Position numbers and translations under genes: made by a program. A DNA stretch of 55,086 nt from a virus. Its lineage: Duplodnaviria; Caudoviricetes. Position 1 is the stretch's first letter. The number at the start of each line of letters is the position of its first letter. Of this stretch, positions 2,925 to 47,751 are shown piece after piece. The stretch lies in the IMG/VR virus record IMGVR_UViG_3300031785_000003, positions 1-55,086 of that record; one strand, written 5' to 3'. Below the pieces are notes generated by a model. That model had not been told where the DNA came from, did no database searches, and saw only the letters and a list, made by a program, of their open reading frames with translations.

Positions 2925-3105
2925 GAGTATGTTGAGACTTTTTATGCTACGACAGCATCAAGGTGGAGTACCAGTAAGAGATGAGAAGGGCGACATCATC
3001 TACTACTCAGACAAGAAGGTCGCTAAGAGGGATAGGGTAGGCAATCAAGTCGTATCCTATGGTATAGACCATCGCAAATATACAAACAGAAAGGAAGGTG
3101 CGTAA
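2917..3105 (+). CDS. Hypothetical protein
   Basis: AGGAGGTG SD; TAATG coupling to the ATPase gene. Confidence 0.75.
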   Translation: MNKSMLRLFMLRQHQGGVPVRDEKGDIIYYSDKKVAKRDRVGNQVVSYGIDHRKYTNRKEGA

Positions 3106-4097
3106 TGCGAGCCACATTATTGAAGGAAACTATTAAGAAACTGTTCCCAACTAAGAGGACAGTATCTATCGAAGGTAGCCCAGGGGGTGGTAAGACTACC
3201 ATTGTACAACAAGTTGCTAAGGAACTTGGGATTGGGTACATCGAGAAACATATGCCGACTATGTTGGTGGAGGACTTCGGTATCCTCTATCCGAATGGAG
3301 ATGATATGTTACACTACAAACTGCCTGATTGGTTTCCATCGGAGGACAGAGCAGACATACCTGATGAAGGTATACTGTGCTTTGATGACAGAAACCAAGC
3401 CAACGCAGACTTGCAGAAGGTACTAGCAAACATATGTCAAGCTAGGAATCTACACGGCAAGGCTCTGAAGAAAGGGTGGATGGTAGTATCCACTGGTAAC
3501 AGACAGTCGGACAGAGCAGGTGCTAACAGAGTGCTGTCTCATCTGCGTAATCGTGAGACTGTGTTTGAACTTGAGACACACCTAGATGATTGGACTAGTT
3601 GGGCAATCGACAACGGAGTGAAACCTGTTGTCATATCATTCATTAGGTTTCGTTCTGCATTGTTGCACGACTTCGACCCACAGAGAGATGTGAACCCATC
3701 TCCTCGTAGTTGGGTAGAGGGTGTGTCTGATACCATTGGTATCGTACCATCGGAGGCAGAGTACGAAACATTCAAGGGTGCTGTTGGTGAAGGGTGTGCG
3801 GCAGAGTTTACAGGCTTTCTAAAGATTGAGAGGAAGTTGCCTAATCCTGACACAATCATTCAACGACCAATGGATGTAGCTGTACCTGATGACCCTGCCA
3901 CTTGCTATGCATTGACTGGTGCATTGGGTGATAGGGCAACCACTGAAAACTTTGGGAATATCGTGAAGTTTGCAGAACGTATGTCGCCTGAGTTCTCTGT
4001 GTTGTGTGTATCGTATGCTAGTCGTAAGAACCCTGACCTTGCATCGCACCAAGCATTCACAGAGTGGGCTGTTAAACACCAAGATGTTTTATTTTAA
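3105..4097 (+). CDS. AAA+ ATPase (MoxR/dynein-related type)
   Basis: Walker A GSPGGGKT, Walker B ILCFDD, sensor-1 STGNR, LRNR arginine finger, SPRSW sensor-2. Confidence 0.9.
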   Translation: MRATLLKETIKKLFPTKRTVSIEGSPGGGKTTIVQQVAKELGIGYIEKHMPTMLVEDFGILYPNGDDMLHYKLPDWFPSEDRADIPDEGILCFDDRNQANADLQKVLANICQARNLHGKALKKGWMVVSTGNRQSDRAGANRVLSHLRNRETVFELETHLDDWTSWAIDNGVKPVVISFIRFRSALLHDFDPQRDVNPSPRSWVEGVSDTIGIVPSEAEYETFKGAVGEGCAAEFTGFLKIERKLPNPDTIIQRPMDVAVPDDPATCYALTGALGDRATTENFGNIVKFAERMSPEFSVLCVSYASRKNPDLASHQAFTEWAVKHQDVLF

Positions 4098-6986: not shown

Positions 6987-8099
6987 ATGGGTATGATAAA
7001 AACAAAACAAGAACTAATCGAGTACATAACTGAGGAGTATGAAGGCGATAGACATCTCAGGGCTTGGTGTATAGATGACAATATGGGAAGGAGGTTGGAC
7101 AACTACCATATGTTTGCAGAACATTTTAGAAGATGCCGTGATAAAGCTAAAGGTAGAAAAGTATCATCAGCCTTTAGAATGTTCAGCACAGTAGAACAAG
7201 GTGTCAAGTGTTATGATTTGCACATTGATGGGTACGGAAGTAATCCTTTTATGCGTATAACACCTGACAACATAGTGGAGTTTGTTGCTACACCTGATGT
7301 GGTAGTGCAACACGCACAGTCTGTGGTGTCCTCTGTTCATCGTTGGATACCATTCACTTTCGAAAGACACAGAAAAGGTCTGTATCGTGTGAATAGTTCT
7401 CAGCATTTCAACAAGGAGTACATACATATTACTAAGACAAACCTAAAAAGACTGAAGGAAGATGCTGAAAACTATGAAGGGGAGATGTCTGAATCTATCA
7501 TCAATAAGTTTCAAGGTGAGTGTTGGCGAAATGGTTGGACTACTTCGTCTAAGATTATGCGTCAATCCCCTGCATACTTTCAAGGTATCAAGTTCAACAT
7601 ACTTTCTGGTAATTGTTTGAATCGTAGATTTGATGACAAGTTCATTGAGAAACCTAAACAGCGAAAAGAATGGAGACAAGCACTAGCTAAGTTCAAACGT
7701 GGTATCAGAGCAAGAGCAAAGATTCGTGCCTTTGACCCATTAATTGAGAAGATGTGGGCAGAGAGACAAACACAGAATCATTACCATTGGAAACAACCTG
7801 ATTGGTCAAGTAATTCTTGGATGAGTTTACTTGAACAGTCAATACGAGACAACAAGTTTCCAAAAGAATTGTTGCTAGGTCTTTGTACTACACCACCAAC
7901 TGGGTACTATCAATCAGAGAAACCCACAAGTAATGATGTGTACAAGAGTACTTGTAAGATATTGGCTGACTGTTCAACAGAATTGCGTAGACGATTCAAT
8001 GTTTTTGAAAGTGAAGGACACGATGAAAGACGACAAGACAAGTACTATACTTATCACGAATCAAGAAACTTAACAATAGAAGAGGCAGGTAAAATATGA
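6987..8099 (+). CDS. Hypothetical protein
   Basis: 370 aa ORF, GAGGT SD, ATGA coupling to the next gene. Confidence 0.8.
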   Translation: MGMIKTKQELIEYITEEYEGDRHLRAWCIDDNMGRRLDNYHMFAEHFRRCRDKAKGRKVSSAFRMFSTVEQGVKCYDLHIDGYGSNPFMRITPDNIVEFVATPDVVVQHAQSVVSSVHRWIPFTFERHRKGLYRVNSSQHFNKEYIHITKTNLKRLKEDAENYEGEMSESIINKFQGECWRNGWTTSSKIMRQSPAYFQGIKFNILSGNCLNRRFDDKFIEKPKQRKEWRQALAKFKRGIRARAKIRAFDPLIEKMWAERQTQNHYHWKQPDWSSNSWMSLLEQSIRDNKFPKELLLGLCTTPPTGYYQSEKPTSNDVYKSTCKILADCSTELRRRFNVFESEGHDERRQDKYYTYHESRNLTIEEAGKI

Positions 8100-8572
8100 C
8101 AGTAATAGCTTGGGATGGAAAGACCCTTGCTACTGACAGAATGGCTAATGATGGTTCTCAGAAATGGGAATCATCAAAGGCTTGGTATAGCAAGAGGTAT
8201 AAAGAAAGGGAGTGTATAATAACTGGCACTGGTTTGTTAGCACATATAATACAGATGAAGGCTTGGTATATACAAGGAGGTGATGTAGATTCTTTTAGAG
8301 ACTTGCCTTGTAACAGAGTATCGTACAACACATCACAACTTATTGTAGTAAGAAGAGAAGGGTTGTATGTATTTGAAGGACACCACCCTGTCCTACGAAA
8401 GGAAAAGTTCAATGCCTTCGGAGATGGTAAAGAAATAGCTATGGGTGCATTGGCTATGGGTGCAACAGCTAAACAAGCTGTGCTTATTTGTAACGATTTT
8501 TCTTTACATTGTGGTAAAGGTGTGGAAGTATTTAGTTTACAAGGAGGTAAAGATGCCGAAGAGGAATGTTAA
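8096..8572 (+). CDS. Ntn-hydrolase, HslV/proteasome beta-subunit-like peptidase
   Basis: N-terminal (M)TVIAWDGKTLATD, AFGDG..IAMGAL..G, C-terminal DFS..CG.GV. Confidence 0.7.
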   Translation: MTVIAWDGKTLATDRMANDGSQKWESSKAWYSKRYKERECIITGTGLLAHIIQMKAWYIQGGDVDSFRDLPCNRVSYNTSQLIVVRREGLYVFEGHHPVLRKEKFNAFGDGKEIAMGALAMGATAKQAVLICNDFSLHCGKGVEVFSLQGGKDAEEEC

Positions 8573-18763: not shown

Positions 18764-21700
18764 TTAATTATCTAGTTCAATACCCCATATCTCTGCCATC
18801 TCATCAATAGCATCACGGGATTGCTTTGGTGCAGTCTTTCTAAATCTTGCTGTTGCAGTTCGTCTTGCAGCTTTAAAAGATTTGTTTGCAGATTGGGTAA
18901 AGTTTCTAAAATAAAATTCTGAATCTCTACCTACGTCTTTGTTATGTTCATCTACAAACTTTAGTATCCTACGCATCTCACCTCTATCATTATCTAGTTT
19001 AGCTTTTACATAAGCCTGAATGTAATGTGCTTTCATAGATTTTAAATACGCTTGGTTTTGTCTGCTAGCTCTTATGATATCATTTTGTATTGATACAGAG
19101 TATGGATAAAAACCTAACATTCTCCAGAACACTGTCCACCCACCAACGTCTTTTGTTAAGACTGTACCATCTGCTTTAGTTATTCTTCCGTCTTCCATAT
19201 ATGAAAGACCATCAAATATTCCTCGTATAGCTGATGATGGGGCATCTCTTAATATAGACCTAAACTCTGTTGTGTCATCTTTGAGTCCTATGGTTTCAGC
19301 TCCATAACGAGCAAGTTGTGTTCCTGTAGCAAACAGTCCTGCTATTCCTGAGTACACTGGCCCTAAGAAATTTTTTGCTTCTTGCCAGTATTCACCTGAA
19401 TTATTCTTAGCTTGGAACACACCAGTCAGTGGAATTAAATCATTAAAACCAAGTCTTGTAGAGAAGGTAGCTCCAAGTACAGGGTCAAGTATTCCTCTCA
19501 TAAATATTGGTGACGCACCAGGAATGAGAGCATCAATAAGTTTACCTGCTTCCTGTTCAACAGTTCCCATTTTAATACCAAACTTTTGCGCTAATGTTTC
19601 AATTAAATCAGATAAGTCATCAGCAAATGGTAGACCTGATAGACCTGCAAGAACAAACAATGTGCCTAACATAGCGATCCTACCTTTAGGTGATAAGCCT
19701 TTCATTAACTGTACACTAACAATAACAAATTGTTTATACATGAAAATATATTGTGCTAAGTTTCCTCTAGCCATCTCAGGTCTGTTGTACATAGCATATT
19801 CACCCTGTGATGTGTTCACTGCCTTTGTTGCAAATGCCATTGCTCTTTGTTGTACAACCTCTTGTTCAGCTTCCGGAAGTTGAGCGAACCCTCCTTGGTT
19901 AGGATAATCAGTGGCTAGTATTCTTTCTCGTTCTAACCTATATGACGCAAGAAATGTAGCTCGTCTGTTAAGTTGTTCTGTATAAGAAAACATACTCATC
20001 CATGCTTTGATAGCACCATTGTAATTGTTACTAGCTCTACCGCCTCTTGATGTTCCGACTAATGCATTAAACTGTGCAGCCTGTAACACACCCGCACCTG
20101 TGGCTTCTAGCATAGCATTAGCTTCATCTTGTTCAATATTGTATTTAGCTAGTTCATCTGGGTCATTAGCTATTTTATATATAGTATCATAGTTAGCTAA
20201 ACCTCCTCTTTTTATATCAGACACAGCTCGTACCATTGCACCAGTAGAATTAGATAAACCAAATCCTCCACCATACCCTCTATTTTTATTATAAGTACCT
20301 AGGTATGGAATAGTGTGGGTAACCATAGACATTAAGTTAATTCCAGCAGTAGCAAACGAACCACCAAGTTGTAACAACACAGCGGCTAGTTTTAATCTTG
20401 AACCTACATCACCAGACAGTTGGTCTTCTGTTGAATCTACAATACTGGCAGAGTCAGAATAAAACTTAATTAATTTGTTAGCTTCTAATCTATAAGATTC
20501 GCCTCTACCTTCATTGGGTATAAAATCTTTGTTAGTTAAAGTTTCACCTCTTTCTGTTTTTTCTAGACCTTCTCTAGTTTTTGCTTGTTCTTGTGCATTT
20601 ATATCAGCAGAATGACTGTAAGCATATGCATATTGTTCATACTCTCTTTTAGCAGCTTCTCTTTGTTCCTCGCTACCTTTTCTTGTAGCTGCTTCAAGTC
20701 GTTTTAACTTATCAGGATCACCTTTAAAAAAATTATCGTTATCTAATATGTCATTAAGCTGCCATGTAAAAGTAACTTTTCCTGCAACATGCCCCATAGT
20801 TTCTAAATGTTCTGCAACACTTCGTACAACATCTTGATCCCACCCTGGGTTACCTGTTCTCTGTAAACTTTTTCTAGCTCTTTCACTAACTCCTGCTAGT
20901 GAGGTAACAACTCTTTGTCTTTCTTCTATAGTAAGTCCAATGTCTAATCTACTAACAATAGACATAAACTCTGTAAGATTTAATGTATTAGCAAGAGGTT
21001 GTGATTGTCTAGCTTCTGATACTTGTGGTCTAATTGCTACTACAACATCATTACCATCTGAATCTTTCATTTGGTATTTTATAGGTTTACCATCTTTATC
21101 TTGGACAAAATTTTTATTTAAATCATTCATTATATCCATTGCATCTTGTTCGCGCGCAGTTTGAAAATATGGTAGTGACCCAGCGAAATCTTCTTGTAGT
21201 TTAACAGCTGCACCATTTTTTACATTGTATGCCTGCATACGAACTTGGTATTTACCTCGTCTGGTAAACGGAACATAACCTGTCATCATAGTTCGTTTAG
21301 CTTGAAACTCTGCATTTACAATCTGTTGGTTATGTACAAATAAATTTTGAATAGTTCCTGTTATTTGAAAGGCTTTTTCTTTTCCATAATTTATATTAGC
21401 TAAATCTGGTAAGGAAGCAATGATGTCAGAAAATTCATCTGTTTGAAATTCAGCAGTATCGTCAAATGTTGGCTGACCAGTTTCTTTATCTATACTTCTA
21501 CCTGCCCAATCATCTAATTTTTTAGGCACCCACAATGCTCTGTTTATAGCTGCTATAAATCTTTTGCCTTTTTCAAATGATTCATTATTAATATTTCCTT
21601 CAAGGTCGGTATTTTCTCTTACTATTCTAGTATATTCTTCAATAATTCTATTAAAGGTTTGTATGTTTTCATCTGTAGGAAGACCATTTTGTCCTGCTAT

Positions 21701-24700
21701 ATTTTCAATATTGTTTAACGCTGCATCTTTTTGTCCTGTAGCAGAAAGTATATTTGCTTCAAGTACATCAATTGCAGCTTGGTTTACAGCATTTCTATTT
21801 TCTTCATATATTCTATAAGCATTGTCAAACTCTTTATCAGTTATAGCTTCACCTTTTTCATCTACTGTAAATGATTTTGTTTGTCTATCTTTATTAGGTA
21901 GTTGATATAAGATACCTTGTTTAAATTGTTCTTTACTAACTTTACCCATTGCTTCTAACGCACTACGTCTTTCAGTATCTATTACTGGTGCATCACCTTG
22001 TCTATTTAGTAAGGCTTCTTCTTGTTGTATACTGGCTGGAGTATGTTCATTAGCTTTAAACACAGCACCAAAAGCAAGCATCTCACCTCCTATTTGTAGT
22101 TCTCTTGCTGTTGGCCCTCCAGCTAATCCAAACCAATTTGGAGTGTGGGTATACGATGTCATTCTTTCATACTCAGACATTACTCTTCTAGTCTTACCAG
22201 CTGAACGCTGGAATATATTAAATATTTTTTGTAGTCCTTCACTTCTTTGAGCTTTGTTATCTAAAGTTTGCACAGTCTCAGCAACTCTTGCAAACAGTCT
22301 GCTAGTTGCTCTGCCTCTACCTTTAGGAAGATTTTTTAAATACTCTTGAAGTTTATCAAAACTACCAAAGGCTCCTGCTTTTTTATTAAGAGCATAAGCA
22401 TGTGTCCAATTAGTAGCATGTCCACTTGATACATTCTCCATAGAAAATCTACCCTGCTCAGCTTCTGATTCTAATGCTCTTATATTTTCTGCTATTTGTT
22501 TTACACCAACAACACCTTTACCACCTCTCATTAAGTTTCTACGAGATTGTCTTAAGAAGTACCGCGTAATATCTGCATCACCTATATTTATTAAATCACC
22601 CATACCTATTGTATCTAGTACAGCTTGAACTAAACTTCTGATACGATAAATTAAACTATTATCAAATGCTGCAGCTTTATCAGCAAGAACTTCTTCTACA
22701 GCTTCCATCATATCTATACCAGGGCGTGAACGCATTATAGTATCAGCAGCGGCTTTTACATGTTTATCTGTTCTGTATACTTCACGAAGAATAGCATCCA
22801 TTCTACTACGAGGCATGAAAGCACGAAAACCAAAATGCCCCAATGCCTCGTGAGCAACAACCAATCTTGCTTGTTCTTTTGATTTTATATAATCACTAAA
22901 GATTATAACTTGGTCACCAATAGAATATCCAGCTGCTTCTACTGTGTCAAAATCTTTGAGTGGTCTACCAGCTGCTGCGCGTCTGTAAAGCTCTGGGTTA
23001 CTTTGAGCTAGTTCTTGTACATTAGCGACTATAGTAACAGTTGGTTTTACTTTTAATTTGTTAAGAACTTTTTTAACAATGAGTTCTATCTCACCTCTAC
23101 CAAGAGGTTTTACAGGTTTACCATCTGCTCTACGAAATTTTCCTGAGTCATCAGTTTTTTGGTCAGCAGCTTCTACTTGAGCAGTAAGAGATTCTGTTGT
23201 GTTTTCTGTTGCGTCTTGGTTGGTTCCTCTTCTAAGTCTGCTTGCACCTGTTACTTGTGTTTCTGTTGTTTCAGGAGATGCATCAGGTACAAGTCTACCA
23301 TCATACATTCGTTTAACTTTTAACTTACCTCCAGTGGTAAAATAATCTTTTAGTTTACGACCATTAGCCATAGTGTATTCTTTATTTGAGTCGGCAAACA
23401 TCTGTTGCATTTGTTCTGTAGCAGGGTCAACTTTACCTGGAAGGTCAGTTCTTATTTCCATACCATAATTATATGCTCTATATGCACCTCCTTTAATATC
23501 TTGTTTTTCAAGATGTGAATTAATAAGTATGGCTAAGTTTTCACTTTGATTTTCTCTAAATTGTTTTTGTTTATCTGCTACATTTTTTCTACCAGATGCT
23601 CCAAGTGCTAGTTCATATAATTTTCTAAATTCATCCATAGGCATACTTTGACCAAGCAATTGTTTTTTACGCATTATATCTCGTAGTCTGTTTGCAGTTG
23701 CCTCACCAAGGACTGCTTCCTGTCCTGATATGTTTTCTGAAATTGCTTCTATTTGTTTGTTAGTAAACCATGTCGGCATGTCTGCAAGTGCAACTTCAAT
23801 TTCACTAACAAGATTTCTTTTTACAGCATATTCTAACCAAGGTTGTGTTTTACCTCCTATTGTTCCTTTAAGAGTAGCATCTTGACTACTAGCATTTATC
23901 ATTGCAATATAAGCCTTATCTAATGCTTGTTGCTGTAAAGAAGTAAAGTCGGTTAGGTTAAGATAGTTAATAGCCTGTTGTCTTATATCTTTATTTACAC
24001 CTCCTTGCGGATTAAAAAATGCAATCCCCATTAAATTATGGCCAAGCATTTGGGCAGGCCCGTAATCTTTAAATGCTTCTGGAGTTAAATCTACAACATC
24101 AAAATCTGCAATAATAGAATCAATTTCTTCTTGTTGAGAAATTCCGTCTACTCCTCTGTTATCTCTTGCTTCAAATTGTTCTAAAACTTCTTTACCTTGT
24201 ATATTTGTTAACGCAGCTAAATCGCCATTGACTGTATCTTCGGCGACTAAATTACTCCAAAGTGTTTTTAATTTAAATACTTGTTTTGTTCGAGGATGCG
24301 TAACATCTTCTGGTAATCTATCATAAGATAAAGCACCTCCTACAGTTAATGCATTCCACATTTCACGAGGTGTTCTACCTTTAACAGGTACAAAGACATT
24401 ACTTACGAAAGCGATTGATTCCTGAGCGCGTTTTTGCCTAGCGTCTTGGTCAGCTTCCCTAGCTGCTCTTTTTTCATCTTTCGTTGCAAACGCAATCTCG
24501 CGAGTTGTCGCTTTTCTGATTTGCTCCTGGAGCCTATTCTTTTGGGCAGTTGTAAGTTGCTGGGCGTCTCCTCTTCGAATCGCTTGGCCAGCTCCGGTTT
24601 GTTGGCGTACATCCACTTCTTCTGGGCTTCTGATTTGAACGGCATCTTGACTCCTTTCTATTTCTTCTTGTGTTGTTGGTGCTGCTACTCGTCTTCTTAA

Positions 24701-27310
24701 TCGTTCAGGAACTTCACTAGTTACTTGTTCCATATCTGCTATAAGATTATTTTGTTCTGTTAAATCATTGTTATCTAAAGCATTTTGAAAATCAATAATG
24801 TAATCGTTTATTGTATTCTGATCAAAACCTTGTTGTTGCATTTTTGCTAAAAGCGGTGCAATAGCAATAGCTCTATTAGGAACAGGAATAGGAAGTCTTT
24901 CTTGTCCTGCATCTTCTAACTCAGCTTGTGTAGGTTCTGCGACAGCTTCACCTTTTCGTAGTGTTTGTTGTGCAGTTGTTACTGGAGCTGGGCGAGGTAT
25001 TCCTGGTATTCTTAATTGTCTAGGTTGTCTAGCAGGTCTTTCTGGTATAGGAATTGTGTCTCGTCTAAGGCGAAATAATTCTCGTTGTATAGCAGTTAGT
25101 TCATCTTCTGAAATTAAACCTTCCATTGCTCGGTCTACTGTATTTATGTCTTCTTGGTCTATTATATCTGGAAAACCTCTTAAATATCTTTCCTCTGTTT
25201 GTCTAGCTTGCTCTAATCTTTGTTGTTCCATTCGTTGGATTTGTTGCTGTTGTGCTTGTTGTTGAGCTTCATTAAACTCTCTTTGTCTTTGTGCTAGCTC
25301 AGCTTCTTGTTGATTAATCTGTCGTAGTATAGCAAGTTGATTTTGCTGTTGTTCAATTTGATTTTGCTGTTGTTGAATTGTATTACTAGCTAGTAGAAGT
25401 TGTTGTCCTGCAGGTGTCTGTTGCGTTTCCTGTGCACTCTGAGTAGGTGTATCAAATGGAATTGTTTGCTGTTCTAACGGAAGTACTTGTTGTCCTGCTT
25501 GCTCTAGCTCAGTTGGTGTAGGCTCTGGTGTAACCACAGGTGCTGGTTGCTGTGGTATTTCTGATAATTGATTTAAATCACGAGCAGTAACTGGTTGTTG
25601 GGGTGGAAATATAATCCCCTGTTGTCCTTCAGTTTGAGCCGGCAGCACAGGTTGATTAGCCTGAACTACTGTATCCAATGGGTCTCCTTCACGAGTCTGT
25701 TGACCTGCTACAAAATTAGGAGGCCCAGATACCTGAGATATAGGAGGAACAGGAGGAGGAATAATTGGAGCACCACCTGGTGGTAATTGATCTGGTGAAG
25801 GAGGAGGCTCAGGGCCTAAGACATCACCTTCGATACCAGGACTTGGTAATAATTTTTGGTCAGCTTTTGGTTCAGTTTTATTTAATATATCAGTAGCTTC
25901 TCCTCGTTTAAGAAGATTAGCACCACCACCTAGTGGGCCACCAATAGCAAAACCTGCTGCAAAAGCATTGATTAATCGTTTACCTACTTCAGCATCACCT
26001 AATTGTCCTGTACCTGCAAGAAGAATACCTTCTTGTCCAACTTCAGTAAGACCTTCAAGTGTACCACCAACTGCTAAACCTTTACCTGCTCTTACAACTC
26101 TATTACCTTTTGTAAGAAGTTCAGGGCCAACACCAAAGATACGACCTGCTAGAAAAAATTCTGGAAGAGTTTCAAGTGCTGCATATGGTATAGCACCAAG
26201 AGCTGCTGTGGCTCTATTACCTACACCTGTGTCTCGCACTTCACCATAGATGTCACCTATACCCATAAGATAACTACCAGCTGTAGAAGTTATAGCAGCA
26301 CCTCCTGCCATAGCTTGACGTCTACCTTGCTTAAGTGCCCCTCTAGCACCACCTAATAATTCATCAGCTTCAAGTTTACGAAGCTGACTAGCGGTAGCTA
26401 ATGACCCAGGTTTAGGTCTAAGAGAAGCTGCACCATACAGACCTGCACCTTCACGAAGTAATTTTCTTTCACCTTTTGTAAGTTTTTGTCCGTTACTATA
26501 TTTTGTGGCGGCTTTTAATAATTCTTTTTTTACTTTACTTCTACCAAATACACTAAGTATAGCACCACCTGTAGCAGTAAAAGGGTTAGCACCACCACCT
26601 GCAACTGCACCTGCTCCAGCACCAGCAAGAGCTACCAGTATTGACTCTATTAAGTTTGGCCCTTGTTGTGCTAAGTTAGCAACAAACCAATCTATTGCAC
26701 CATGTCCACCTTCGTTTTCAAAATAATCAATGCTAGTAAATTCTCTTTGAAATGGTTGGTTATAATATAATTCTTGTGCCGCACTGTCTACCCAGTTCTG
26801 CCCTAGTTCTTCTGCACCAAGAAACTGTGCAGCTCTACCAGCAAGTAACTTTAGATTACTACCACCTATCTCAAAATTTCTTGCCATAAGAGTACCCTTA
26901 CCAGGGTCTTCTATATTTCTCATATAGTTCTTATAAGAATCAGGAGATACGCTTTGCCAGTCTGGGGCATCAGGTACAGTAGTAGCTCTAGGTTTATCTA
27001 AGAATCCTTGACCTTCTGCATCTAGTGCTGACTGTGCATCATCAGCATCATACAGTGCACCATTGACAAACATTTTATTTTGAGAAGGACTAAACAATAC
27101 AAGAGGCCCTGTCTTAGGAGGCTGGTTAGTAGATAACAAAGCAGATTCTAGTGAGTCAGCTTCTTGTTGTAGTTGTATAAATGGGTCAGCAGCATTTGCT
27201 CCAAGTTGTGATTTACCACTGATTGGGTCAAAAGGATTACCTGTTCCAGGAGCACTGGTAGCATCGTAGAAGTTACTTGAGAAAGGTTGTAATCCTGCTT
27301 TTTTTACCAC
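18764..27310 (-). CDS. Giant internal virion / DNA-ejection polyvalent protein (2848 aa)
   Basis: G/A-rich N-terminal helices, P/Q-rich linker, HEALGH zincin-like motif (22852-22835), helical C-terminal region; last gene of the late arm; GTG start overlaps upstream TAG. Confidence 0.85.
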   Translation of the reverse strand: MVKKAGLQPFSSNFYDATSAPGTGNPFDPISGKSQLGANAADPFIQLQQEADSLESALLSTNQPPKTGPLVLFSPSQNKMFVNGALYDADDAQSALDAEGQGFLDKPRATTVPDAPDWQSVSPDSYKNYMRNIEDPGKGTLMARNFEIGGSNLKLLAGRAAQFLGAEELGQNWVDSAAQELYYNQPFQREFTSIDYFENEGGHGAIDWFVANLAQQGPNLIESILVALAGAGAGAVAGGGANPFTATGGAILSVFGRSKVKKELLKAATKYSNGQKLTKGERKLLREGAGLYGAASLRPKPGSLATASQLRKLEADELLGGARGALKQGRRQAMAGGAAITSTAGSYLMGIGDIYGEVRDTGVGNRATAALGAIPYAALETLPEFFLAGRIFGVGPELLTKGNRVVRAGKGLAVGGTLEGLTEVGQEGILLAGTGQLGDAEVGKRLINAFAAGFAIGGPLGGGANLLKRGEATDILNKTEPKADQKLLPSPGIEGDVLGPEPPPSPDQLPPGGAPIIPPPVPPISQVSGPPNFVAGQQTREGDPLDTVVQANQPVLPAQTEGQQGIIFPPQQPVTARDLNQLSEIPQQPAPVVTPEPTPTELEQAGQQVLPLEQQTIPFDTPTQSAQETQQTPAGQQLLLASNTIQQQQNQIEQQQNQLAILRQINQQEAELAQRQREFNEAQQQAQQQQIQRMEQQRLEQARQTEERYLRGFPDIIDQEDINTVDRAMEGLISEDELTAIQRELFRLRRDTIPIPERPARQPRQLRIPGIPRPAPVTTAQQTLRKGEAVAEPTQAELEDAGQERLPIPVPNRAIAIAPLLAKMQQQGFDQNTINDYIIDFQNALDNNDLTEQNNLIADMEQVTSEVPERLRRRVAAPTTQEEIERSQDAVQIRSPEEVDVRQQTGAGQAIRRGDAQQLTTAQKNRLQEQIRKATTREIAFATKDEKRAAREADQDARQKRAQESIAFVSNVFVPVKGRTPREMWNALTVGGALSYDRLPEDVTHPRTKQVFKLKTLWSNLVAEDTVNGDLAALTNIQGKEVLEQFEARDNRGVDGISQQEEIDSIIADFDVVDLTPEAFKDYGPAQMLGHNLMGIAFFNPQGGVNKDIRQQAINYLNLTDFTSLQQQALDKAYIAMINASSQDATLKGTIGGKTQPWLEYAVKRNLVSEIEVALADMPTWFTNKQIEAISENISGQEAVLGEATANRLRDIMRKKQLLGQSMPMDEFRKLYELALGASGRKNVADKQKQFRENQSENLAILINSHLEKQDIKGGAYRAYNYGMEIRTDLPGKVDPATEQMQQMFADSNKEYTMANGRKLKDYFTTGGKLKVKRMYDGRLVPDASPETTETQVTGASRLRRGTNQDATENTTESLTAQVEAADQKTDDSGKFRRADGKPVKPLGRGEIELIVKKVLNKLKVKPTVTIVANVQELAQSNPELYRRAAAGRPLKDFDTVEAAGYSIGDQVIIFSDYIKSKEQARLVVAHEALGHFGFRAFMPRSRMDAILREVYRTDKHVKAAADTIMRSRPGIDMMEAVEEVLADKAAAFDNSLIYRIRSLVQAVLDTIGMGDLINIGDADITRYFLRQSRRNLMRGGKGVVGVKQIAENIRALESEAEQGRFSMENVSSGHATNWTHAYALNKKAGAFGSFDKLQEYLKNLPKGRGRATSRLFARVAETVQTLDNKAQRSEGLQKIFNIFQRSAGKTRRVMSEYERMTSYTHTPNWFGLAGGPTARELQIGGEMLAFGAVFKANEHTPASIQQEEALLNRQGDAPVIDTERRSALEAMGKVSKEQFKQGILYQLPNKDRQTKSFTVDEKGEAITDKEFDNAYRIYEENRNAVNQAAIDVLEANILSATGQKDAALNNIENIAGQNGLPTDENIQTFNRIIEEYTRIVRENTDLEGNINNESFEKGKRFIAAINRALWVPKKLDDWAGRSIDKETGQPTFDDTAEFQTDEFSDIIASLPDLANINYGKEKAFQITGTIQNLFVHNQQIVNAEFQAKRTMMTGYVPFTRRGKYQVRMQAYNVKNGAAVKLQEDFAGSLPYFQTAREQDAMDIMNDLNKNFVQDKDGKPIKYQMKDSDGNDVVVAIRPQVSEARQSQPLANTLNLTEFMSIVSRLDIGLTIEERQRVVTSLAGVSERARKSLQRTGNPGWDQDVVRSVAEHLETMGHVAGKVTFTWQLNDILDNDNFFKGDPDKLKRLEAATRKGSEEQREAAKREYEQYAYAYSHSADINAQEQAKTREGLEKTERGETLTNKDFIPNEGRGESYRLEANKLIKFYSDSASIVDSTEDQLSGDVGSRLKLAAVLLQLGGSFATAGINLMSMVTHTIPYLGTYNKNRGYGGGFGLSNSTGAMVRAVSDIKRGGLANYDTIYKIANDPDELAKYNIEQDEANAMLEATGAGVLQAAQFNALVGTSRGGRASNNYNGAIKAWMSMFSYTEQLNRRATFLASYRLERERILATDYPNQGGFAQLPEAEQEVVQQRAMAFATKAVNTSQGEYAMYNRPEMARGNLAQYIFMYKQFVIVSVQLMKGLSPKGRIAMLGTLFVLAGLSGLPFADDLSDLIETLAQKFGIKMGTVEQEAGKLIDALIPGASPIFMRGILDPVLGATFSTRLGFNDLIPLTGVFQAKNNSGEYWQEAKNFLGPVYSGIAGLFATGTQLARYGAETIGLKDDTTEFRSILRDAPSSAIRGIFDGLSYMEDGRITKADGTVLTKDVGGWTVFWRMLGFYPYSVSIQNDIIRASRQNQAYLKSMKAHYIQAYVKAKLDNDRGEMRRILKFVDEHNKDVGRDSEFYFRNFTQSANKSFKAARRTATARFRKTAPKQSRDAIDEMAEIWGIELDN
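24403..24645 (-). CDS. Overprinted small basic protein (80 aa), +1 frame inside the giant gene
   Basis: AAAGGAG 5 nt before ATG; MPFKSEAQKKWMYANKPELAKRFEEET; local GC increase. Confidence 0.75.
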   Translation of the reverse strand: MPFKSEAQKKWMYANKPELAKRFEEETPSNLQLPKRIGSRSKSEKRQLARLRLQRKMKKEQLGKLTKTLGKNALRNQSLS

Positions 27311-36901: not shown

Positions 36902-37111
36902 TTATCCCATTTTATTTTTCTTTGATTTTTTAATCTCATCTTGTAATGCTTTTGGTAATGTTTTTTGAGCTTTAGTTAAGATACCACCGTTACCAAATTT
37001 TGGTACTAGCCCACCATTTTTATACATAGCTACATTTTTCTTTTTCTTTATTTCACCACCATAACCATACATTTTCTTTTTCTTTTTGTCTTTCATCATA
37101 TAACCTGGCAT
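36902..37111 (-). CDS. Small Lys-rich protein with three [YF]xxGG motifs
   Basis: AAGGAGG SD; YGYGGEI, YKNGGLV, FGNGGIL. Confidence 0.85.
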   Translation of the reverse strand: MPGYMMKDKKKKKMYGYGGEIKKKKNVAMYKNGGLVPKFGNGGILTKAQKTLPKALQDEIKKSKKNKMG

Positions 37112-47333: not shown

Positions 47334-47582
47334 CTACCATTTCTTGCACGACCAATATCGTGCAGTTAGTTTACTTGGAGGAGACGTATCACATCTGTGT
47401 CTCGCTCTAAAATTTTTACGTCTGCCTGGTTGGTTCTTTTTAATTTTCATATTAGCATCTCCAAATCTAATAATTTTTTCTTTACCATTTGCGCATGCTT
47501 TTACAACAAACTTTTTACCGCCAGAAACCTGACGTCTCGGTTTATTACATGCCATTTTGGATTTATCAAGTTTTGGAGCCAT
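47334..47582 (-). CDS. Small basic protein (82 aa)
   Basis: KKFVVKAC...IRFGD...RRKNFRARHRC...ARYWSCKKW. Confidence 0.85.
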   Translation of the reverse strand: MAPKLDKSKMACNKPRRQVSGGKKFVVKACANGKEKIIRFGDANMKIKKNQPGRRKNFRARHRCDTSPPSKLTARYWSCKKW

Positions 47583-47751
47583 TACCCTTTGCTTTCATTT
47601 TTGCTTTTTTTGATAACTCACTAAAGTGAAATAATTTTACACTTGTCTTACCATGTGTTTTACCAGAATGTAATTCACCATTAGGCATTTTATGAGTATT
47701 ACCTGTAAAAAGAGTACCATCTCTTTTATAGTGTTTCATATTTTTACCCAT
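47566..47751 (-). CDS. Small basic His-rich protein
   Basis: AAGGAG SD; HY..DG, THKMPNG.LHSGKTH. Confidence 0.85.
   Translation of the reverse strand: MGKNMKHYKRDGTLFTGNTHKMPNGELHSGKTHGKTSVKLFHFSELSKKAKMKAKGNGSKT

What the first reader, a model, noticed from the sequence alone, without database searches (positions are those of the whole stretch)
24403..24657. Overprinted gene with its own SD inside the 2848-aa ejection protein gene
Seen: on the same strand in the +1 frame (host codons ~889-969), AAAGGAG-5nt-ATG opens an 80-codon ORF, MPFKSEAQKKWMYANKPELAKRFEEETP..., that is very basic. The DNA here is visibly more GC-rich than its flanks, and the host frame reads as low-complexity linker (DAVQIRSPEEVDVRQQTGAGQAIRRGD). 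From recollection, 'MPFKS.AQ..WMYAN.PE.AKR' also starts stand-alone small phage proteins; I could not search this. Inference: a small gene was absorbed into a disordered linker of the giant protein, and both frames are translated. Gene callers would miss this dual coding.
Basis: partly seen in the sequence, partly recalled or inferred. Interest (0 to 1): 0.9.

Follow-up and report, generated by a model that had tools for sequence, protein, structure and literature searches.

The report
Small gene nested inside giant phage gene
An 80-codon gene for a small basic protein, with its own ribosome-binding site, lies in a second reading frame inside a 2848-codon phage virion-protein gene; the same nesting is kept in many related uncultured phages, so one stretch of DNA very probably encodes two proteins that gene callers report as one.

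Summary
AAAGGAG (24657-24651), a 5-nt spacer and ATG (24645) open an 80-codon ORF ending at 24403, in the +1 frame of the 2848-codon gene 27310-18764.

The peptide belongs to a large, unnamed family of small basic phage proteins that begin MPFKSxAQ..WMYANxP (1559 cluster representatives). Most stand alone.

Among 80 giant-gene relatives found through their N-terminal domain alone, 68 cover the region. Of these, 49 carry a family member in the +1 frame and 19 do not.

Selection acts on the nested frame. Its pN/pS is 0.42, against 1.11 for the host frame over the same bases and about 0.6 for the host frame in the flanks.

Nested copies almost never use T at their third codon positions (47 of 2004, against 512 of 2140 in stand-alone copies). 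That keeps the host frame free of stops. With the window's codon usage the host frame stayed open in 0 of 20000 recodings.

The GC bump is therefore a recoding signature, not foreign DNA. The small gene is the older one, and the giant protein's linker is read across it.

Translation is inferred, not shown. The function is unknown; my best guess is a head-interior or packaged protein.

The parts
24651..24657 (-). Shine-Dalgarno sequence AAAGGAG, 5 nt before the nested start codon
   Evidence: Read directly. AAGGAG or a close variant lies 4-6 nt before the start in 9 of 9 relatives. An SD-like site is present in 46 of 49 nested copies. 27 of 37 window genes have an SD-like site.
24403..24645 (-). 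Nested gene: 80 codons plus stop, +1 frame of the giant gene; small basic protein P0001
   Evidence: Nested-frame pN/pS 0.42 against 1.11 for the host frame on the same bases. Family membership.
24538..24645 (-). Codons 1-36: family-wide N-terminal module (MPFKSxAQ..WMYANxP ... TP...LP)
   Evidence: Alignments A3 and A5. pN/pS 0.31 for codons 1-28. AF2 places helices at residues 6-15 and 17-26, with block-mean pLDDT 91-97 over residues 1-40.
24406..24537 (-). Codons 37-80: basic C-terminal extension with the conserved signature SEKRxxAR ... GKL ... NK(L/F)RNQ; predicted long helix
   Evidence: Gapless alignment in 7 close relatives. pN/pS 0.48 in the nested frame against 1.02 in the host frame for codons 29-79. 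Helix at residues 44-75.
18764..27310 (-). Host gene: 2848-codon giant virion (internal/ejection-type) protein, last gene of the minus-strand structural operon
   Evidence: PHROG matches are confined to the C-terminal part (phrog_11358 and phrog_21376, both of unknown function). Neighbours are an internal virion protein, tail fibre, major head protein, portal and terminase.
24647..24718 (-). Hypervariable, indel-rich host linker just upstream of the nested start
   Evidence: Host-frame pair identity is 0.07-0.29 with many gaps, then jumps to 0.68 at the nested start.
24335..24402 (-). A host-frame block conserved in all relatives begins right after the nested stop (F/I-x-P/D-V-x-G-x-T-P-x-E-x-W)
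   Evidence: Alignments. The nested ORF ends where host-frame constraint resumes.

Best explanation
This is true dual coding. The DNA at 24645-24403 (minus strand) is read in two frames.

Frame 0 is a hydrophilic linker of the 2848-aa virion protein. Frame +1 is a separate 80-aa basic protein, started by 30S binding at its own strong SD (AAAGGAG, 5 nt) and ATG inside the long mRNA.

The small gene is the older and more constrained partner. It belongs to a widespread family of stand-alone small phage genes. The giant protein's linker is read across it and is constrained mainly to stay free of stop codons. It achieves that by avoiding T at the nested gene's third codon positions, and this produces the local GC rise.

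Shown here:
- the family membership;
- the conservation of start, SD and both open frames;
- the frame-specific selection;
- the recoding signature.

Inferred:
- that both products are made;
- that initiation is internal rather than from a separate transcript.

On function, I give about 35% to this reading: a head-interior or packaged protein, whose N-terminal helical hairpin docks it onto (or targets it to) the assembling head or internal-protein complex and whose K/R tail binds DNA.
For: Family membership:
- tblastn shows residues 1-27 matching the N-termini of small stand-alone ORFs in phages C75C1, P-RSP2, S-CBS2 and FlowerPower.
- A 45-aa stand-alone copy is 81% identical over residues 1-27.
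- There are 706 clusters and 1559 representatives.

Conservation:
- 9 of 9 relatives covering the site keep SD, ATG and a 79-89-codon +1 ORF. Two of them have only 28-29% host-frame identity.
- In 80 giant genes found by the N-terminal domain alone, 47 have a +1 nested copy at residues 745-1163, 2 have it in a split giant, 19 lack it and 12 are too short to tell.
- At motif position 1 the start codon is ATG in 37 and GTG in 7; in 3 more an ATG sits at position 2. An SD-like site is present in 46 of 49.

Selection:
- Host third positions are the least variable (33 of 78) and host first positions the most (49 of 78). The flanks show the reverse (178 of 252 and 238 of 302 at host position 3).
- pN/pS is 0.42 in the nested frame, 1.11 in the host frame and 0.58/0.62 in the flanks.
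- Over 38 distinct nested sequences it is 0.45 against 1.60.
- A TCA/AGC serine switch at codon 5 is silent only in the nested frame.

Host frame kept open by selection:
- 0 of 20000 recodings of the small protein with window codon usage leave the host frame open; the analytic estimate is 1.3e-7.
- The host-type frame is stop-free in 1 of 38 stand-alone copies. The 34 nested copies are open by definition.
- T at nested third positions is 3 of 80 here, against 40% genome-wide. It is 47 of 2004 in nested copies against 512 of 2140 in stand-alone copies.

Generality:
- The same nesting occurs in an unrelated ~400-aa gene between portal and a virion structural protein, with pN/pS 0.33 against 1.00.

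Function hints:
- Stand-alone copies lie directly after giant genes (10 loci), between terminase and portal, or after portal.
- The module is N-terminal on larger proteins carrying SAM-lyase, M48-like peptidase, cupin and DUF5661 domains.
Against: - No expression data of any kind. Translation of either frame over this stretch is inferred.
- NG86 pN/pS is biased in overlapping frames, pS is near saturation (0.5-0.6), and the pairs are not phylogenetically independent.
- 19 of 68 informative giant genes lack the nested gene, and 3 records estimated 96-100% complete have no family member at all. It is therefore dispensable in some lineages.
- Three loci carry decayed relics.
- Four cultured relatives (HMO-2011, CRP-3, HTVC033P, RHph_TM3_14A) have no copy, so no laboratory system is at hand.
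- Function: no Pfam family; phrog_1375 is of unknown function; no fold or sequence match to solved structures. One stand-alone copy sits beside ribonucleotide reductase and one in a T7-like early/middle region, which does not fit a strictly structural role.
Confidence: 0.8

Rival explanations
1. The +1 frame is reached by programmed +1 ribosomal frameshifting from the giant ORF. That would give a truncated N-terminal product with a basic tail, and the SD-like sequence would act as a frameshift stimulator rather than an initiation site.
For: An internal SD just upstream of a frame change is the arrangement used by prfB (recalled, not tested). Both frames are open across the junction.
Against: A start codon sits exactly at motif position 1 or 2 in 47 of 49 nested copies. 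Stand-alone homologs begin at that same Met. No shared slippery or stop codon lies upstream: the preceding host sequence is hypervariable with indels. The SD spacing of 4-6 nt fits initiation.
Confidence: 0.05
2. The nested ORF is an untranslated relic of a captured small gene. Its conservation reflects constraint on the giant protein or on the nucleic acid, not on a second protein.
For: Relics without a clean start exist in some lineages (L165, L167, L170). 19 of 68 giant genes lack it.
Against: Variation is concentrated at nested third positions (host first positions), and host-frame pN/pS is 1.0-1.6. A constrained host protein would show the opposite. SD and start are kept over host-frame divergence down to 28% identity. 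The relics show what loss of constraint looks like: the start is lost and conserved aromatic residues are replaced.
Confidence: 0.07
3. The small gene is a mobile mini-cassette that inserts into linkers of head and internal-protein genes and is tolerated because it can be read through. On this reading its presence here is an insertion rather than ancestral gene fusion. This concerns origin and does not exclude dual coding.
For: Two collinear homologous giant genes differ in placement: nested at about residue 1045 (L068) and free-standing just after the stop (L099), with a single copy per record in the five records checked, L099's among them. It is also nested in an unrelated ~400-aa gene. Its presence varies among giant genes.
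Against: Within the window's giant family the position is homologous: the same alignment column in 9 of 9 and always in the linker after the N-terminal domain. No convincing flanking repeats were found, only a 14-nt direct repeat at 79% identity and a 10-nt inverted repeat, of a size the tool itself warns is often chance. No near-identical copies in different contexts were seen.
Confidence: 0.25
4. The giant ORF is really two genes, and the host frame is open across the small gene by chance or by assembly error.
For: One lineage (L160/L161) has the giant gene split upstream of the nested ORF.
Against: The host frame is open in every one of the 34 + 47 nested cases, from independent contigs. 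The chance of that with normal codon usage is about 1e-7 per copy, and it holds in 1 of 38 stand-alone copies. T-avoidance at nested third positions is a specific signature of selection for an open host frame.
Confidence: 0.02

Closest known systems
Lambda-type spanin genes Rz/Rz1 (embedded architecture); recalled knowledge. Papers on nested Rz1 appeared only in a search listing.
   Same: A small gene with its own ribosome-binding site and start lies wholly inside a larger phage gene in the +1 frame, and both are expressed from one mRNA.
   Different: P0001 has no cysteine and therefore no lipobox (sequence). It is not in a lysis cassette. The host is a giant virion protein. Here the nested gene is the older, widely distributed one, and the host segment is the unconstrained frame.
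Classical overprinting in viruses: phiX174 E in D and B in A are recalled; reviews PMC8227390 and PMC6195259 were seen as abstracts only.
   Same: Two proteins come from one DNA stretch in different frames. One frame is constrained and the other is compositionally odd.
   Different: In overprinting a new ORF is born inside an old gene. Here the small ORF pre-exists as a stand-alone family, and the new reading is an ~80-residue linker of the large protein. This is closer to the 'stop-codon loss / extension over a neighbour' route listed in the abstract of PMC2268670.
phrog_1375 and the unnamed family of small MPFKS... phage proteins
   Same: The N-terminal 36-45 residues align without gaps (A5). 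The tail is basic. The length falls within the family's range.
   Different: Most members are stand-alone, 40-70 aa long, and use ordinary codons. The window's copy is nested, recoded (T-poor third positions) and carries a 35-residue clade-specific helical extension.
In-frame nested genes, such as the second endolysin inside lysA of mycobacteriophage Ms6 (PMC3111421, title and abstract seen)
   Same: Internal initiation inside a phage structural or lysis gene gives a second product.
   Different: Those products share the host frame and sequence. Here the frames differ and the two proteins are unrelated.
Small packaged/ejected head proteins and capsid-targeting peptides (T7 gp6.7, T4 internal proteins with an N-terminal targeting sequence); recalled, a functional analogy only
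   Same: Small basic proteins or N-terminal tags, encoded in head modules and attached to varied cargo.
   Different: No sequence or fold relation was found. Packaging of P0001 has not been tested.

Membership tests
Small MPFKS-type basic phage protein family (includes phrog_1375) | N-terminal module M-P-F-K-S-x-A-Q-x-x-W-M-x-A-N-x-P ... T-P ... L-P starting at residue 1 | tested here: met
   A5 invariant columns are S5, Q8, P17, L33 and P34; nearly invariant are M1, P2, W11, N15, A20, T27 and P28. The profile search found 1559 representatives, nearly all matching from their residue 1.
Small MPFKS-type basic phage protein family (includes phrog_1375) | Significant profile match to the PHROG model | tested here: inconclusive
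   P0001 against phrog_1375 gives E=0.0021, 19.4 bits. Longer family members give E=5e-5 to 2e-4.
Small MPFKS-type basic phage protein family (includes phrog_1375) | Short length with a K/R-rich tail | tested here: met
   80 aa, 22 K+R against 7 D+E. Family members listed are mostly 40-70 aa with K/R tails.
Nested out-of-frame phage gene pair (Rz/Rz1-type architecture) | Whole ORF inside a larger gene, same strand, +1 frame, own SD and start | tested here: met
   and conserved in relatives.
Nested out-of-frame phage gene pair (Rz/Rz1-type architecture) | Both products made | not testable with these tools
   Supported only by selection on both open frames.
o-spanin (Rz1) | Lipoprotein signal with a lipobox cysteine; location in a lysis cassette | tested here: not met
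   P0001 has no cysteine. The gene lies in the internal-protein part of the structural operon.
Pfam DUF3008 (PF11450) | Match to the Pfam model at or above its gathering score | tested here: not met
   No Pfam family at E<=1 for P0001 or for 8 family members. The only link is a weak Atlas feature similarity of 0.78.
Programmed +1 frameshift product | Conserved shift site and no independent start | tested here: not met
   A start codon lies at motif position 1 or 2 in 47 of 49 copies. The upstream sequence is not conserved.

The most novel reading that the evidence does not exclude
The MPFKS module is a portable head-interior (packaging/ejection) targeting tag. Phages attach it to varied cargo: a DNA-binding basic tail, SAM lyase, metallopeptidase, cupin. 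The gene for its minimal form has repeatedly been swallowed by, or has moved into, the linkers of scaffold-position and giant ejection-protein genes. This gives a widespread class of 'reverse-overprinted' dual-coding loci, in which the big protein is the newcomer frame. Nesting would tie synthesis of the small protein in time and place to the protein it travels with.
Probability: 0.25. Interest if true: 0.85.

Novelty: new variant of a known kind. Interest (0 to 1): 0.75.

Why it matters
Three reasons.

Annotation. A conserved protein-coding gene is invisible to standard gene callers in at least 83 viral contigs examined here: 34 loci and 49, with some contigs shared between the two sets. These phages are relatives of the marine HMO-2011-type group.

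Evolution. This is a clear natural case in which the constrained, older gene is the nested one, and a large protein's linker is threaded through it under the single rule 'no stops'. It also leaves a measurable recoding signature (T-poor third positions and a local GC rise) that could be used to find more such loci.

Biology. It ties an unstudied family of more than 1500 small-protein clusters to head-assembly and ejection-protein genes, which gives a concrete place to look for their function.

I found no description of this locus type in four full-text searches.

Tried and rejected
Foreign, GC-rich origin of the segment: rejected. The nesting is old (relatives with 28% host-frame identity keep it), and the extra G+C sits at nested third positions as T-avoidance.

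Cultured relatives of the giant gene. blastn and tblastn of the region, the N-terminal 480 aa and the middle 967 aa against 50,697 phage records found nothing. tblastn with two other family members found only the same few phages. The profile found no copy in four cultured portal relatives.

A first viral-contig scan with the 451-aa stretch around the site found no relative.

Function by homology or fold led nowhere:
- Pfam: none.
- Foldseek against PDB: nothing at E<=0.001.
- BFVD: only uncharacterised family members.
- PDB sequence profile: only chance hits at E 0.5-0.64.
- Atlas: viral hypothetical clusters.

Internal promoter: 5 promoter-like sites against 3.1 +/- 2.0 in shuffles, so not distinguishable from chance.

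Flanking repeats as marks of insertion: only short imperfect pairs.

Complex prediction of the small protein with the window's portal returned 'no answer (no support, and no evidence against)'. It is not used either way.

Not done: sequencing-run and read-laying tools were not used, because RNA coverage cannot show internal translation initiation. No phylogenetic tree of small genes against hosts was built (the module is only 27-45 residues). No supplements of papers were seen.
Full report
WHAT IS THERE. The feature lies on the minus strand. AAAGGAG (24657-24651), the 5-nt spacer TCAAG and ATG (24645) open an 80-codon ORF that stops at 24405-24403. It sits wholly inside the 2848-codon ORF 27310-18764 (GTG start), shifted +1: host codon 889 starts at 24646. 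The product (P0001) has 22 K+R against 7 D+E and no cysteine. GC rises to 0.47-0.51 across 24400-24700, from 0.28-0.35 on the flanks.

The window is a complete 55,086-bp virus record. Its minus-strand structural operon runs terminase, portal, probable scaffold, major head protein, tail fibres and an internal virion protein (phrog_511). Several unassigned genes follow, and the giant gene comes last. The nearest cultured portals are those of Rhizobium phages (33%) and of HMO-2011-type marine phages (26-27%).

THE PEPTIDE BELONGS TO A REAL FAMILY. tblastn against phage records matched residues 1-23 or 1-27, always from residue 1, in 16 records. Four of them were inspected.
- In phages C75C1, P-RSP2 and S-CBS2 the match is the start of an unannotated 34-40-aa basic ORF lying between genes.
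- In Streptomyces phage FlowerPower it is the annotated 72-aa gp48.

A viral contig carries a 45-aa stand-alone copy that is 81% identical over residues 1-27. A profile of seven copies found 706 clusters at E<=0.01. In the exhaustive search it found 1559 representatives at E<=0.001, nearly all matching from their own residue 1.

Members are mostly 40-70 aa with a K/R tail. Some are the N-terminus of larger proteins that carry SAM-lyase, AAA-like, M48-like peptidase, cupin or DUF5661 domains.

No Pfam family matches. The PHROG is phrog_1375, of unknown function. AlphaFold2 on a 40-row alignment gives mean pLDDT 86: a helical hairpin (residues 6-15 and 17-26), a loop and a long helix (44-75). 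Foldseek finds nothing in the PDB and only uncharacterised relatives in BFVD. A PDB sequence-profile search gives only chance hits.

THE NESTING IS CONSERVED. A scan with the giant protein's N-terminal domain found six viral contigs. Five reach the site, and all five have the +1 ORF. A metagenome scan added three more, two of them with only 28-29% host-frame identity. All 9 of 9 sequences, the window included, keep AAGGAG-like SD 4-6 nt before ATG and an open 79-89-codon +1 frame. The start falls in the same alignment column in every one.

A wider scan that did not depend on the nested gene (N-terminal domain profile A6) returned 80 loci, the best of 165:
- 47 have a family member nested in the +1 frame at giant residue 745-1163.
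- 2 (L160/L161) have the giant gene split, with the ORF nested in the downstream 1602+-aa piece.
- 19 cover at least 1746 aa and have none.
- 12 are too short to tell.

Across the 49 nested copies, motif position 1 is ATG in 37 and GTG in 7. An ATG sits at position 2 in 3, and there is no start at either position in 2. An SD-like site precedes 46 of the 49.

Three loci (L165, L167, L170) look like decaying relics. Three records estimated 96-100% complete carry the giant gene but no family member anywhere.

WHICH FRAME IS UNDER SELECTION. In six close-clade sequences (15 pairs) the most variable positions in the overlap are nested third positions, which are host first positions (49 of 78 columns). 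The least variable are host third positions (33 of 78). In both flanks, host third positions are the most variable (178 of 252 and 238 of 302).

Nei-Gojobori pN/pS values are as follows.
- Nested frame: 0.42 overall (0.31 for codons 1-28, 0.48 for codons 29-79).
- Host frame on the same bases: 1.11 overall (1.56 and 1.02).
- Third frame: 0.92.
- Host frame in the flanks: 0.58 and 0.62.

Host-frame pS falls to 0.25 in the overlap, from 0.49-0.55 in the flanks. With 38 distinct nested sequences (codons 2-27, 703 pairs) the figures are 0.45 nested against 1.60 host. A TCA/AGC serine switch at codon 5 is silent only in the nested frame.

These estimators are biased for overlapping frames, pS is near saturation, and the pairs are not independent. 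I read the direction of the contrast, not the values.

THE HOST FRAME IS KEPT OPEN ON PURPOSE. Genome-wide, third positions are 40% T (11,384 codons). The nested ORF has 3 T in 80, and 0 T in the 31 codons that precede a codon starting AA, AG or GA, where a T would create a host-frame stop.

Recoding the small protein with the window's codon usage left the host frame open in 0 of 20000 draws; the analytic estimate is 1.3e-7. I also compared copies from the family-based scan (80 loci, 77 with a recognisable ORF). The host-type frame is stop-free in 1 of 38 stand-alone copies; the 34 nested copies are open by definition. T at third positions is 512 of 2140 in stand-alone copies against 47 of 2004 in nested ones.

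The GC bump is therefore the footprint of dual coding, not a sign of recent import.

THE HOST SEGMENT IS A LINKER. Host-frame identity is 0.07-0.29 with many indels just upstream of the nested start, and jumps to 0.68 at the start. A host block conserved in all relatives begins right after the nested stop. A weak model from a 6-row alignment puts the first ~25 overlapped host residues below pLDDT 50 and the rest in one long helix.

BEYOND THIS GIANT FAMILY. In the family-based scan, 23 nested copies lie in long ORFs (more than 1400 aa seen), always with the same frame relation. By tblastn only 16 loci have hosts detectably related to the window's giant protein. The other hosts fall into at least three further groups.

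Eleven copies are nested near the N-terminus of a 279-405-aa gene. In the loci whose neighbours were scanned, this gene lies between portal and a virion structural protein, the usual place of a scaffold gene. There too the nested frame is the constrained one, 0.33 against 1.00 over 36 pairs.

Ten stand-alone copies start within a few bases of the stop of a giant ORF. One such giant (2842 aa, in a complete 62-kb record) is collinear with a giant that carries the gene nested at about residue 1045. Its own record, like the four other records of this kind that were checked, holds a single copy.

Other stand-alone copies lie between terminase and portal, after portal, or (one case) beside ribonucleotide reductase.

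HOW IT MOST LIKELY WORKS. Ribosomes read the giant ORF straight through in frame 0. Free 30S subunits also load at the strong internal SD-ATG and make the 80-aa protein. This phage uses SD sites at 27 of 37 genes, and AAGGAG-N4-8-ATG marks an ORF of 26 aa or more in 15 of 17 occurrences.

The small gene is the older frame, because it has a wide stand-alone family. The linker is the younger reading. Whether the arrangement arose by fusion of flanking genes across the small gene or by insertion into a linker is open. The differing positions in homologous giants suggest that the gene has moved at least once.

Function is not established. The association with head-assembly and internal-protein genes, the strictly N-terminal module, the varied C-terminal cargo and the polybasic tail make a head-interior, packaged or DNA-associated role my best guess, at about 35%.

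WHAT IS KNOWN. Nested +1 genes are known in phages (Rz/Rz1, phiX174; recalled). P0001 is not a spanin: it has no cysteine and is not in a lysis cassette. Reviews of overprinting (abstracts of PMC8227390 and PMC6195259) describe new ORFs born inside old genes, which is the reverse of this polarity. The abstract of PMC2268670 lists stop-codon loss between neighbouring genes as another route to overlap, which fits better. Four full-text searches found no description of this family or of this nesting.

VERDICT. I file it as a new variant of a known kind. Confidence in dual coding is about 0.8, and interest is 0.75.

Noticed in passing
window 23006-23080 (minus strand; giant protein residues ~1411-1435): A zincin-like HEALGH motif lies within the giant protein. 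There is a weak match to phrog_18074 (E=0.0067). One larger family member carrying the MPFKS module also has an M48-like peptidase domain (L050).
   Followed up: no
window 18764-27310 compared with L008/L100: The closest relative is 97% identical in the N-terminal 480 aa of the giant protein but only 41-70% identical through much of the middle. The gene looks mosaic, as if recombined.
   Followed up: partly
L160 5869-13206 and L161: In two contigs the giant gene is split into a 689-aa N-terminal gene, an overlapping 254-aa ORF and a 1602+-aa gene. The nested ORF sits about 100 codons into the last piece and has no start codon at motif position 1; an ATG lies 11 codons upstream.
   Followed up: partly
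L167 ~7900-8100; L165; L170: Degenerate +1-frame relics of the nested gene (VVLKSQKQLRFLQ...) lie at the homologous place in giant genes. They have no ATG at motif position 1 (GTG in L165 and L170, none in L167), and aromatic residues conserved across the family are replaced.
   Followed up: partly
L099 7426-16096 (complete 62.4-kb record) compared with L068: Homologous, collinear giant genes differ in where the small gene lies: free-standing just after the stop in one, nested at about residue 1045 in the other.
   Followed up: partly
P0189, P0130, L050, L037/L063, L032, L034: The MPFKS module forms the N-terminus of larger proteins with SAM-lyase (PF23780), cupin, M48-like peptidase or DUF5661 domains. 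It also heads 889- and 1152-aa proteins in 177-195-kb contigs.
   Followed up: partly
window 47566-47751 and 36902-37111 (minus strand): Two further small ORFs (61 and 69 aa, the second lysine-rich) sit behind strong AAGGAG sites in the structural operon. They fall below the 100-aa ORF list used here.
   Followed up: no
L001 3998-4105, L002 ~3001-3123, L003 3001-3111: In the GenBank records of phages C75C1, P-RSP2 and S-CBS2 the small family member lies in an unannotated gap between genes.
   Followed up: yes
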